From Escherichia coli (GTDB lineage Bacteria > Pseudomonadota > Gammaproteobacteria > Enterobacterales > Enterobacteriaceae): a DNA stretch of 3,982 nucleotides. The translations under genes and the position numbers were made by a program. Below, in pieces: positions 227 through 710 of the stretch. Positions within the stretch are counted from its first letter, which is position 1, and every line of letters begins with the position of its first letter. The notes under the pieces were generated by a model. That model searched no databases. It worked only from the letters and a program-made list of their open reading frames with translations, and was not told the DNA's origin. The stretch lies in the NCBI RefSeq assembly GCF_003334255.1, contig NZ_QOWU01000112.1; one strand, given 5' to 3'.

Positions 227-627
227 TTATTTGTCCGCTGACGGGCTTTTAGTAATTCTTCAAAGAGTTTATTGAAGTTTTTTACTCGAGCTCGCATTTC
301 GGCGAGCTGGGTATCCTGTTCTGATTCTGGCAGTGCATTAAACAGCTCAAGGAGCTCTAGTTCTTTGGGGGATAAGGCAACTGGCTTCTCAACAGGTGGT
401 GTTGGTTGCTTGTCTTCATCGCCAAATAGAATCCATGTTGGTGAGCATTGCAATACTTTGCTGAGGGCAAAAAGGTTCTTCCCTGTAGGTTCACTATCAC
501 CCCGTTCCCATTGTGATACAGACACATGGGAGATTTTCAGGGCTTTAGCAAGAGACCTTTGGGTGTGTTTGAGGTTTTTCCGACGATACCTGATGCGTTC
601 GCCGATAGTTAAATTTTTTGTTTCCAT
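220..627 (-). CDS. dicA: DicA-type HTH (XRE/cI-like) prophage repressor, 135 aa
   Basis: 135-aa ORF beginning METKNLTIGERIRYRRKNLKHTQRSLAKALKISHVSVSQWERG, an XRE-family helix-turn-helix in the N-terminal half. The sequence and length match what I remember of E. coli Qin prophage DicA. It is divergent from a 76-aa Cro-like gene across an operator-rich spacer. No Shine-Dalgarno is evident upstream of the ATG. Confidence 0.88.
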   Translation of the reverse strand: METKNLTIGERIRYRRKNLKHTQRSLAKALKISHVSVSQWERGDSEPTGKNLFALSKVLQCSPTWILFGDEDKQPTPPVEKPVALSPKELELLELFNALPESEQDTQLAEMRARVKNFNKLFEELLKARQRTNKR

Positions 628-629
628 AG

Positions 630-643
630 TTAGCTAATGCTAA
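630..643. promoter_or_regulatory. Candidate operator dyad TTAGCTAATGCTAA immediately upstream of the dicA start
   Basis: TTAG-N6-CTAA arrangement; contains the perfect 8-bp palindrome TTAGCTAA (630-637). Begins 3 bp from the dicA initiation codon (625-627 on the minus strand). Confidence 0.4.
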
Positions 644-649
644 ATCGTA

Positions 650-678
650 TTGACTATGTTTTTGTTAACATCTATCCT
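650..678 (+). promoter_or_regulatory. Candidate rightward sigma70 promoter for dicC (PR-like)
   Basis: TTGACT at 650-655 (-35), a 17-bp spacer, then TATCCT at 673-678 (-10). The predicted start falls inside the 679-694 dyad. The RBS-like AAAGGTG at 697-703 precedes the dicC ATG at 711. Confidence 0.45.
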
Positions 679-694
679 GTTAGTTATGACTAAC
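679..694. promoter_or_regulatory. Candidate operator, near-perfect dyad GTTAGT-TATG-ACTAAC overlapping the dicC promoter start region
   Basis: 6-bp arms GTTAGT and ACTAAC are exact reverse complements around a 4-bp spacer. Position directly downstream of the -10 is typical of a repressor or Cro operator. Confidence 0.5.
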
Positions 695-710
695 AATAAA
701 GGTGTTTTAA

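What the first reader, a model, noticed from the sequence alone, without database searches (positions are those of the whole stretch)
625..710. Repressor gene has no Shine-Dalgarno and an operator 3 bp from its ATG: possibly a leaderless mRNA
The sequence upstream of the dicA ATG (TTAGCTAACT-ATG on the coding strand) has no purine-rich SD, while the divergent dicC has a reasonable one. Lambda cI is translated from a leaderless transcript initiated at its AUG (PRM). The same logic may apply here, with the 630-643 dyad acting as an autoregulatory site.
Basis: inference. Interest (0 to 1): 0.3.

Follow-up and report, generated by a model that had tools for sequence, protein, structure and literature searches.

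The report
dicA repressor's known near-leaderless mRNA
The prophage repressor gene dicA does lack a ribosome-binding site because its mRNA starts only about 3 bases before the AUG, but this was already mapped experimentally in E. coli K-12 and matches phage P22, so the finding is correct and not new.

Summary
dicA is at 220-627 on the minus strand and is preceded by ...TTAGCATTAGCTAACT-ATG, which has no anti-SD complementarity (+0.3 kcal/mol). dicC scores -3.9 and most other window genes -5 to -11. A TTAGC-N4-GCTAA dyad at 630-643 ends 2 nt from the ATG. TTAG-N6-CTAA occurs 3 times in the window against 0.06 expected, always in regulatory DNA.

The window's dicA/dicC region matches K-12 Qin, with one intergenic difference at 677. 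For K-12, dRNA-seq with RLM-RT-PCR (Romero 2014) puts the dicA start 3 nt before the ATG, which is window A630. A Rend-seq-based list (PNAS 2022) also calls dicA leaderless.

My comparisons agree. Across 17 intergenic sequences (52-99% identical DicA relatives plus P22), a -10-like hexamer lies 6-9 nt before a conserved ATG, and none of the 13 repressor genes scored has an SD, whereas nearly all their cro genes do. The window hexamer TAGCAT (642-637) aligns column for column with P22's PRM -10, whose transcript starts 4 nt before c2.

The dyad is the published putative operator Oa, the OR3 equivalent. It covers the -10 and +1, but DicA did not bind it alone in the only reported test, so DicC is the likelier ligand.

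Verdict: real, correctly interpreted, already known.

The parts
220..627 (-). dicA coding sequence (135-aa HTH repressor, cI/C2 analogue)
   Evidence: ORF. NCBIfam NF007257 DicA, 234 bits. Same protein as K-12 DicA by DNA alignment; the one base difference in the gene keeps the residue.
625..627 (-). dicA AUG start codon, the only viable start
   Evidence: In-frame TAG at 636-634 upstream. The next in-frame start is GTG at codon 35, inside the HTH. The ATG is conserved at this junction in all 42 distinct related upstream regions and in 17 aligned representatives.
628..630 (-). 3-nt 5' UTR (ACU). The transcription start is A630, or possibly A631.
   Evidence: Published K-12 dRNA-seq TSS 3 nt upstream of the ATG, with RLM-RT-PCR, transferred through sequence identity. 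P22 annotates the PRM 5' end 4 nt before c2 in the aligned position.
637..642 (-). -10 hexamer of the dicA (PRM-type) promoter, TAGCAT
   Evidence: 4/6 match with A2 and T6, and its last T lies 7 nt before A630. It aligns column for column with the annotated P22 PRM -10 TAAGAT. Relatives carry TAGCAT, TAGTAT, TAGAAT or TATATT 6-9 nt before the ATG.
660..665 (-). Position expected for the dicA -35 (ACAAAA, about 2/6), i.e. a weak, activator-dependent promoter
   Evidence: Read from the sequence at 17-bp spacing. The consensus scan finds no minus-strand promoter. Yun 2012 state that the dicA promoter is not obvious and that DicA at Oc is needed for dicA transcription.
630..643 (.). Operator Oa (OR3 equivalent): dyad TTAGC-N4-GCTAA overlapping the dicA -10 and +1. 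The 18-mer is 628-645.
   Evidence: pattern enrichment. Named Oa, and reported as not bound by DicA alone, in Yun 2012. Its geometry matches P22 OR3, which abuts the c2 ATG.
653..670 (.). Putative middle operator Om (TGTTAAC-AAAA-ACATAGT, degenerate). My delimitation places it 25 bp centre to centre from both Oa and Oc.
   Evidence: Reading of the sequence. The block is conserved in relatives. Om is mentioned as a sequence-only operator. The boundaries are inferred.
677..696 (.). Operator Oc (OR1 equivalent), the demonstrated DicA site. On the minus strand the window has G at 677 where K-12 has A.
   Evidence: Oc is TTGTTAGTCATAACTAACAA in Yun 2012, with genetic and EMSA evidence. Perfect 18-mer match at 678-695. 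A DicA site is annotated at -8..+12 of dicCp. SNP.
650..678 (+). dicC promoter (PR equivalent): -35 TTGACT at 650-655 and -10 TATCCT at 673-678, with the TSS at about 685
   Evidence: The only consensus-grade promoter found. 5'RACE for dicC places the -11 A as stated in Yun 2012. The complementary GTCAA is conserved in relatives and P22.
698..704 (+). dicC Shine-Dalgarno region (AAAGGTG), used as the internal contrast to dicA
   Evidence: -3.9 kcal/mol. In 13 loci the cro-like genes average -5.9 and the repressors -0.33.
711..941 (+). dicC coding sequence (Cro analogue)
   Evidence: NCBIfam NF007282 DicC, 159 bits.
132..184 (.). OL-type operators of the same family downstream of dicA (dicBp region): 132-149 and 167-184
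   Evidence: The literature describes three operators at dicBp.

Best explanation
This is the maintenance (PRM-type) promoter and translation start of the DicA repressor, in a P22-like immunity region of a Qin-type lambdoid prophage.

1. Transcription. RNA polymerase uses a weak promoter with -10 TAGCAT at 642-637 and almost no -35. Transcription depends on DicA bound at Oc (677-696) and starts at A630, or possibly A631.
2. The mRNA. It has only ACU (or AACU) ahead of the AUG, so it cannot carry a Shine-Dalgarno sequence. DicA must therefore be made by leaderless-type initiation on a 5'-proximal AUG. The first ~26 nt are predicted unpaired. Expression is low, about 20-25 DicA molecules per cell in published proteomics.
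3. The dyad. Oa (630-643) lies over the -10 and +1 and is the OR3 equivalent. Whatever binds it turns dicA off. DicC (Cro-like) is the most likely ligand, and DicA may bind only cooperatively or at high concentration.
4. Promoter overlap. The dicA and dicC start sites are only about 55 bp apart, as in P22 (about 53 bp by my estimate). I recall about 82 bp for lambda, which I did not check here. The two promoters overlap back to back and are probably mutually exclusive, so repression of dicCp by DicA at Oc may itself contribute to 'activation' of dicA.

Shown experimentally by others: the TSS, DicA binding at Oc, and the dependence of dicA transcription on DicA. Inferred: the -10 assignment, the translation mode, the ligand of Oa, and promoter exclusion.
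For: - Identity to K-12. The window's dicA, dicC and intergenic region match K-12 except one intergenic base at 677 and one base in dicA.
- Published TSS. It lies 3 nt upstream of the ATG, is a class I primary start, and was confirmed by TAP-dependent RLM-RT-PCR. The gene-specific primer 'ftsT' equals window 383-402.
- Independent listing. A Rend-seq-based classification with a 5'UTR cut-off of 5 nt or less lists dicA.
- No SD.
- Conserved geometry. A -10-like hexamer lies 6-9 nt before a conserved ATG in relatives at 52-99% protein identity, including lineages with different operator sequences.
- P22. The record annotates the PRM 5' end 4 nt before c2, operators abutting the ATG, and a -10 that aligns exactly with TAGCAT.
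- Accessible 5' end. The first 26 nt are predicted unpaired.
- The operator family is statistically real.
- DicA at Oc activates dicA and represses dicC. DicC overexpression lowers dicA.
- A related prophage repressor in the same genomic position, paaR2, was shown leaderless by 5'RACE, N-terminal sequencing and mass spectrometry.
Against: - The TSS was mapped in K-12, not in the strain this window comes from. The one intergenic difference (677) lies in Oc and in the dicC -10, about 47 bp from the dicA start.
- The leader is 3-4 nt, not 0. Added 5' nucleotides are reported to reduce leaderless translation in E. coli (statement in PMC5230787).
- In Ribo-seq, the endogenous leaderless mRNAs, dicA included, were as kasugamycin-sensitive as ordinary mRNAs. 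The 70S-type initiation mode is therefore not established for dicA.
- Reg-Seq found no RNAP site in its dicA window. This fits a weak, activator-dependent promoter but is not positive evidence.
- DicA binding to Oa was not detected.
Confidence: 0.85

Rival explanations
1. DicA is translated mainly from a longer, leadered transcript. This would start at an upstream establishment-type (PRE-like) or read-through promoter lying antisense to dicC, and would be translated by a non-SD mechanism.
For: Lambda and P22 have PRE promoters that read through cro antisense into the repressor gene. P22's PRE is annotated. The window encodes a cII-position gene at 925-1455, annotated as YdaT family or cII. Such a transcript may exist during infection by the intact phage PhiR42_1.
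Against: In K-12 the dominant primary 5' end is at -3. The Rend-seq criterion required the 5' end to be the strongest within 200 nt upstream. RLM-RT-PCR reported upstream amplicons only for rhlB, not for dicA. There is no consensus minus-strand promoter within 1 kb upstream. No YdaT-type TTGATT-N6-AATCAA site rises above chance. Even a leadered transcript would have no SD before this ATG.
Confidence: 0.07
2. The 5' end at -3 is a processing product of a longer RNA, not a transcription start.
For: Short apparent leaders can arise from RNase cleavage, and ACU|AUG lies in an A/U-rich context.
Against: The site is a class I TSS in TEX-based dRNA-seq, and the RLM-RT-PCR product depended on TAP treatment, which indicates a triphosphate end. 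A -10-like hexamer sits at the right distance and is conserved across diverged relatives and P22.
Confidence: 0.03
3. A different start codon is used, so the lack of an SD at 627 is irrelevant.
For: Automatic annotation sometimes chooses downstream starts that have an SD. In the phage 21 record the homologous repressor is annotated from a downstream ATG with an 'RBS'.
Against: An in-frame TAG lies 3 codons upstream. The next in-frame start is GTG at codon 35, which would remove most of the HTH. The ATG and the residues after it are conserved across the family. The closely placed paaR2 was proven to start at its 5'-terminal AUG.
Confidence: 0.02
4. One reading: the 630-643 dyad (Oa) is a negative autoregulatory site bound by DicA itself, as lambda OR3 is bound by cI.
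For: Oa keeps the TTAG/CTAA core shared with the proven DicA site Oc. It overlaps the -10 and +1, so any binding there would repress dicA. P22 annotates OR3 as a C2 site in the same place. The regular 25-bp spacing of Oc, Om and Oa would allow cooperative binding (my reading).
Against: Yun 2012 report, as data not shown, that DicA bound neither Oa nor Om in an in-vivo operator assay. Oa lacks the outer TG..CA positions of Oc, with 3 mismatches to the 18-mer. DicC overexpression represses dicA, which points to DicC as the ligand.
Confidence: 0.3

Closest known systems
E. coli K-12 Qin prophage dicA (b1570) leaderless mRNA (Romero et al. 2014 Mol Microbiol, PMC4681348; listed again in PNAS 2022, PMC8794815)
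   Same: It is the same gene, with the same sequence from the ATG out to position 676. The same TSS, -10 and Oa therefore apply. It is already classified as leaderless.
   Different: The window's prophage is more complete to the right of dicC than K-12 Qin. It carries YdaT/cII-like, O-like, DUF977 and methyltransferase genes, and occurs in 266 E. coli genomes and in phage PhiR42_1. There is one SNP, at 677, in Oc and the dicC -10.
Phage P22 c2 / PRM / OR3
   Same: The N-terminal domain of the repressor is homologous (58.7% identity over residues 8-70). The c2 and cro genes are divergent with an 80-bp intergenic region, and three operators abut the ATG. The PRM -10 TAAGAT aligns with TAGCAT. 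The PRM 5' end lies 4 nt before the AUG in the same ...TTAACT-ATG context. PR and PRM overlap back to back.
   Different: C2 has a RecA-cleavable C-terminal domain and is 216 aa. DicA is 135 aa with a different C-terminus and is relieved by an antirepressor. The operator sequences differ.
Lambda cI from PRM, the textbook leaderless mRNA
   Same: It is a maintenance-promoter transcript of an immunity repressor with no SD, from a weak promoter activated by the repressor, with an OR3-type operator over the promoter.
   Different: From my own knowledge and not tested here: lambda cI mRNA starts exactly at the A of the AUG, OR3 lies between the -10 and -35 (centre about -20), OR2 is at about -42, and the PR and PRM starts are about 82 bp apart. 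In this window Oa is centred at about -6, Om at about -31, Oc at about -56, and the two starts are about 55 bp apart.
Other leaderless prophage repressor mRNAs in E. coli: racR (Rac), ymfK/cohE (e14), paaR2 (CP-933P)
   Same: All are repressors at the cI position of cryptic lambdoid prophages whose TSS lies at or next to the AUG.
   Different: Those three have 0-nt leaders, whereas dicA has 3 nt. The proteins are only distantly related.

Membership tests
Leaderless mRNA (operational definition: 5'UTR of 5 nt or less, or under 10 nt) | Primary transcript 5' end within a few nt of the start codon | not testable with these tools
   This needs an experiment. Published data for K-12 put the TSS at -3, by dRNA-seq with TAP-dependent RLM-RT-PCR and by a Rend-seq-based list. 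I tested transferability: the sequence is identical from the ATG to 676.
Leaderless mRNA (operational definition: 5'UTR of 5 nt or less, or under 10 nt) | No Shine-Dalgarno complementarity upstream of the start | tested here: met
   +0.3 kcal/mol in the window. The mean is -0.33 in 13 relatives against -5.90 for their cro genes.
Leaderless mRNA (operational definition: 5'UTR of 5 nt or less, or under 10 nt) | AUG (not GUG or UUG) start codon, with no alternative start available | tested here: met
   ATG at 627-625, with an in-frame TAG 3 codons upstream. The ATG is conserved in all relatives.
Leaderless mRNA (operational definition: 5'UTR of 5 nt or less, or under 10 nt) | Promoter -10 element at the distance that places +1 at or next to the AUG | tested here: met
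   TAGCAT ends 9 nt before the ATG. Equivalent hexamers lie 6-9 nt before the ATG in all lineages, and TAGCAT aligns with the annotated P22 PRM -10.
Leaderless mRNA (operational definition: 5'UTR of 5 nt or less, or under 10 nt) | Accessible (unstructured) 5' end | tested here: met
   The first 26 nt are unpaired in both the MFE and centroid structures.
Strictly leaderless mRNA (lambda cI type, 5'-terminal AUG) | Transcription starts exactly at the A of the AUG | not testable with these tools
   Published mapping says it does not: the leader is 3 nt, and the P22 homologue has 4 nt. On that evidence dicA is near-leaderless, not strictly leaderless.
Strictly leaderless mRNA (lambda cI type, 5'-terminal AUG) | 70S- or IF2-dependent, kasugamycin-tolerant initiation | not testable with these tools
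   Published Ribo-seq found the endogenous leaderless mRNAs, dicA included, as kasugamycin-sensitive as bulk mRNAs. The mechanism is unresolved.
P22-type lambdoid immunity region | Divergent HTH repressor and Cro-like genes separated by about 80 bp, with three dyad operators and overlapping PR and PRM | tested here: met
   83-bp intergenic region. Operator family. Co-linear alignment with P22. DicA and DicC family matches.
P22-type lambdoid immunity region | Repressor with a RecA-cleavable S24 peptidase C-terminal domain | tested here: not met
   DicA is 135 aa. Only HTH and DicA-family models match, with no LexA or S24 model. The P22 similarity is limited to residues 8-70. The literature says DicA lacks the Ala-Gly cleavage site and is controlled by an antirepressor.
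OR3-type autoregulatory operator | Dyad of the operator family overlapping the maintenance promoter | tested here: met
   630-643 matches TTAG-N6-CTAA and overlaps the -10 (637-642) and +1 (630).
OR3-type autoregulatory operator | Bound by the repressor itself, giving negative autoregulation | not testable with these tools
   The only report is negative: DicA bound neither Oa nor Om alone in vivo, data not shown. Cooperative binding has not been tested.

The most novel reading that the evidence does not exclude
The fixed junction (-10 hexamer, 9 nt, then ATG, with a conserved CTAACT before the AUG) persists from P22 to Qin-type, Cronobacter and Stenotrophomonas phages, even where operator specificity has changed. 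It may reflect selection for a 3-4-nt 'near-leaderless' mRNA as a distinct, deliberately inefficient translation class.

It would work together with a switch design in which PR and PRM overlap completely, with starts about 55 bp apart. The repressor's 'self-activation' would then come largely from removing RNA polymerase from the competing cro promoter, not from a lambda-type activator contact. In this reading Oa is a Cro(DicC)-only site and not an autoregulatory one.
Probability: 0.2. Interest if true: 0.35.

Novelty: already known. Interest (0 to 1): 0.1.

Why it matters
It matters little as a discovery. dicA's leaderless status, the Oa/Om/Oc operators and the P22-like layout are all in the literature. 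The useful outcomes are practical.

1. The K-12 result can be transferred safely to this more complete prophage, and to the whole DicA family, because the -10-to-ATG geometry and the lack of an SD are conserved.
2. Gene callers that insist on an SD can mis-place the start of such repressor genes. The phage 21 cI annotation appears to have this problem.
3. The ligand and role of Oa, and the way DicA 'activates' its own overlapping promoter, remain open and are easy to test.

Tried and rejected
- **Consensus sigma-70 scan**. It finds only the dicC promoter and no dicA promoter. This agrees with the literature's 'not obvious' and is not evidence against the TSS.
- **Alternative -10 TACGAT at 649-644**, 16 nt before the ATG, which would give a leader of about 10 nt. 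Rejected: it is not conserved in relatives and is inconsistent with the mapped TSS.
- **-35-like TTAACA at 668-663.** Rejected as the -35 for TAGCAT because the spacer would be 20 bp.
- **YdaT (cII-equivalent) binding motif TTGATT-N6-AATCAA**, as a marker of a PRE-like promoter. Nothing above chance.
- **Rfam scan of the window.** No RNA family matched.
- **A third TSS data set.** Thomason 2015 is not held. The Cappable-seq supplements contain none of the expected coordinates, and the main text does not mention dicA.
- **Krishnan et al. 2010**, on the effect of 5' extensions, is not held. I cite that point only second-hand.
- **Off-by-one in Romero's Table S3.** The gene 'left' coordinate is 0-based. 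I could narrow the start only to A630 (the paper's own figure of 3 nt) or A631, which would equal P22's 4 nt.

Full report
**What the window is.** The 3982-bp window is the early regulatory region of a Qin-type lambdoid prophage of E. coli.
- ORFs and NCBIfam matches identify dicA (220-627, minus strand, 135 aa, NF007257) and the divergent dicC (711-941, plus strand, NF007282). They are separated by 83 bp.
- The whole window is present at 99.7% identity in many E. coli chromosomes. 266 genomes cover at least 80% of it.
- Its dicA protein is 100% identical to the cI of Escherichia phage PhiR42_1, a complete phage genome from ECOR13. That phage has the same gene order and annotates the genes as cI, Cro, cII, O, LygF and methyltransferase.
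- K-12 Qin shares dicC, the intergenic region, dicA and the DNA beyond dicA. It lacks the window's intact early-right genes beyond dicC.
- In the shared part, windows 1-960 and K-12 differ at two bases: 677 in the intergenic region and one base in dicA that keeps the residue.

**Checking the observation.**
- The coding strand reads ...CGATTTAGCATTAGCTAACT-ATG-GAA-ACA.
- The 25 nt upstream of dicA have no complementarity to the 16S 3' end (+0.3 kcal/mol). dicC has AAGG eight nt from its ATG (-3.9), and the other window ORF starts score -0.9 to -11.2.
- An in-frame TAG three codons upstream, and the lack of any in-frame start before codon 35, leave ATG 627-625 as the only usable start.
- The dyad at 630-643 is TTAGC-TAAT-GCTAA.
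- TTAG-N6-CTAA occurs three times in the window (134, 630, 680) against 0.06 expected, and 0 of 200 shuffles reach three. A longer consensus adds 167-184. All copies lie either in the dicA-dicC intergenic region or just downstream of dicA at the dicB-operon promoter. This is a real operator family.

**What is already known.**
- Romero et al. 2014 (PMC4681348) mapped E. coli K-12 transcription starts by differential RNA-seq. They reported five mRNAs with leaders under 10 nt, three of them prophage regulators: dicA (Qin), racR (Rac) and ymfK (e14).
- Their Table S3 gives the dicA TSS as FWD_(I)-1645954 against a gene start of 1645957, a leader of 3 nt.
- Their Fig. S1C confirms it by RLM-RT-PCR with and without TAP. 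The gene-specific primer, listed under the synonym ftsT, is window 383-402.
- The coordinate convention leaves a one-base ambiguity, so the start is window A630 (paper's figure) or A631.
- A 2022 PNAS study defined leaderless genes from Rend-seq 5' ends, requiring a 5'UTR of 5 nt or less and the strongest 5' end within 200 nt. It highlights dicA among the known leaderless genes.
- paaR2, the repressor at the same position in prophage CP-933P, was shown leaderless by 5'RACE, N-terminal sequencing and mass spectrometry.
- Because the window is identical to K-12 from the ATG out to 676, these results transfer.

**Independent sequence evidence.** I collected relatives of DicA from phage records and from IMG/VR contigs (80 loci and 42 distinct upstream regions).
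- In every lineage the repressor ATG is directly preceded by an SD-free sequence, and a -10-like hexamer ends 6-9 nt before the ATG. This holds from 99% down to 52% protein identity, in Enterobacteria phage PPompW (an E. coli phage), Stenotrophomonas phage BUCT709 and Cronobacter phage phiES15. The hexamers are TAGCAT, TAGTAT, TAGAAT and TATATT.
- The geometry also holds in lineages whose operator sequences differ, such as the PPompW type (L072) and P22. It is therefore not just operator conservation.
- As an internal control, 12 of the 13 cro-like genes in the scored loci have stronger SD complementarity than their repressor, and one ties at -3.1. The means are -5.9 kcal/mol for cro and -0.33 for the repressors, with paired Wilcoxon p = 0.0005. 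The loci are related, so this is descriptive and not a true probability.
- In the window, the last T of TAGCAT (642-637) lies 7 nt before A630, which is the standard -10-to-+1 distance.
- The predicted mRNA 5' end is unpaired for its first 26 nt.

**Comparison with P22.** The curated P22 record (BK000583) annotates OR1-OR3 abutting the c2 ATG, the PRM promoter, and the '5' nt of RM transcript' 4 nt before c2.
- The two junctions align without gaps. P22 reads AGTCAAGTTTATTTAAGATGACTTAACT-ATG and the window reads AGTCAATACGATTTAGCATTAGCTAACT-ATG.
- The P22 PRM -10 (TAAGAT) falls on TAGCAT, and the P22 start (the first A of AACT) falls on window 631.
- The conserved GTCAA is the complement of the -35 (TTGAC) of the rightward promoter. 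In the window this is dicCp, with -35 TTGACT at 650-655 and -10 TATCCT at 673-678.
- The dicC TSS is at about 685, from Yun et al.'s 5'RACE description and the annotated DicA site at -8..+12.
- The two start sites are therefore about 55 bp apart here and about 53 bp in P22 (my estimate from the annotated PR -10). The usual polymerase footprints would overlap completely.

**Operators.** Yun et al. 2012 (PMC3441716) showed genetically and by EMSA that DicA binds Oc, TTGTTAGTCATAACTAACAA, which is window 677-696.
- DicA at Oc represses dicC and is required for dicA transcription. They describe the dicA promoter as 'not obvious'.
- They also state that Om and Oa, two operators predicted from sequence, were not bound by DicA in their in-vivo assay (data not shown).
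- Relative to the dicA start, Oa is centred near -6 and covers the -10 and +1. My delimitation of Om is centred near -31, and Oc near -56. P22's OR3, OR2 and OR1 lie at about -6, -31 and -54.
- Anything bound at Oa must therefore block dicA transcription. DicC overexpression lowers dicA expression, so DicC is the more likely ligand. DicA binding that depends on cooperativity cannot be excluded.

**Mechanism and its limits.** The best-supported picture is a weak, DicA-dependent PRM-type promoter. It produces a 3-4-nt-leader mRNA that is translated without an SD at a low level. About 20-25 DicA molecules per cell are quoted.
- The mode of ribosome recruitment is inferred. Published Ribo-seq found endogenous E. 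coli leaderless mRNAs, dicA included, no more kasugamycin-tolerant than other mRNAs. Extra 5' nucleotides are said to reduce leaderless translation.
- Whether DicA activates its promoter by direct contact or by clearing polymerase from the overlapping dicC promoter is open.

**Rivals.**
- A dominant leadered transcript is contradicted by the two 5'-end data sets. It is also unsupported by promoter or YdaT-site searches, although an establishment transcript during infection remains possible.
- A processing origin for the 5' end is contradicted by the TEX and TAP dependence and by the conserved -10.
- An alternative start codon is excluded by the reading frame.

**Verdict.** It is already established for this very sequence, so novelty is nil and interest is low. 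The autoregulatory role proposed for the dyad is plausible from its position but is not supported by the only reported test.

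Noticed in passing
L087 (phage 21, OL657228.1) 686-763 versus the annotated CDS 764-1336: The phage 21 repressor is annotated from a downstream ATG with an 'RBS'. An in-frame ATG at locus 686 abuts the operator (...CTTAACT-ATG, as in P22) and encodes MNTQLMGERIRARRKELKIRQAALGK, which matches the first 13 residues of P22 C2 compared here. The annotated start probably removes 26 residues at the start of the DNA-binding domain, because a leaderless gene has no SD.
   Followed up: partly
window 677: This is the only intergenic difference from K-12: C on the plus strand here, T in K-12. It falls on the outermost base of the DicA operator Oc and on position 5 of the dicC -10 (TATCCT here, TATCTT in K-12). 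Relatives carry A or G at this position.
   Followed up: partly
window 685-694: The dicC mRNA (TSS about 685) would begin U-AUG-ACU-UAA. This is a 5'-proximal AUG with a two-codon ORF inside Oc, 23 nt before the real dicC start. It resembles the '5'-uAUG' class described for some E. coli mRNAs. Its significance is unknown.
   Followed up: no
window 630-685: The dicA and dicC transcription starts are only about 55 bp apart, and about 53 bp in P22. The two promoters overlap entirely, so DicA's 'self-activation' could partly be relief of promoter competition and not a lambda-type contact.
   Followed up: partly
window 2861-3304: The methyltransferase ORF ends at an in-frame TAA (3215-3217), and the same frame continues as WNETQIPVSQILALTDRKPVICQRTGKKR. 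The gene may be interrupted by a nonsense codon. Phage PhiR42_1 annotates the same short 357-bp CDS.
   Followed up: no
window 132-184: Two further operators of the same TTAG-N6-CTAA family lie downstream of dicA, flanking a TTGACC -35-like element on the minus strand. This is the OL/dicBp equivalent that controls the dicB-type operon.
   Followed up: partly
window 925-2401: To the right of dicC the window carries intact cII-position (YdaT family) and replication-protein genes where K-12 Qin has only ydfX and ydfW. The same arrangement is found in the complete phage genome PhiR42_1, so this prophage type may be active.
   Followed up: partly
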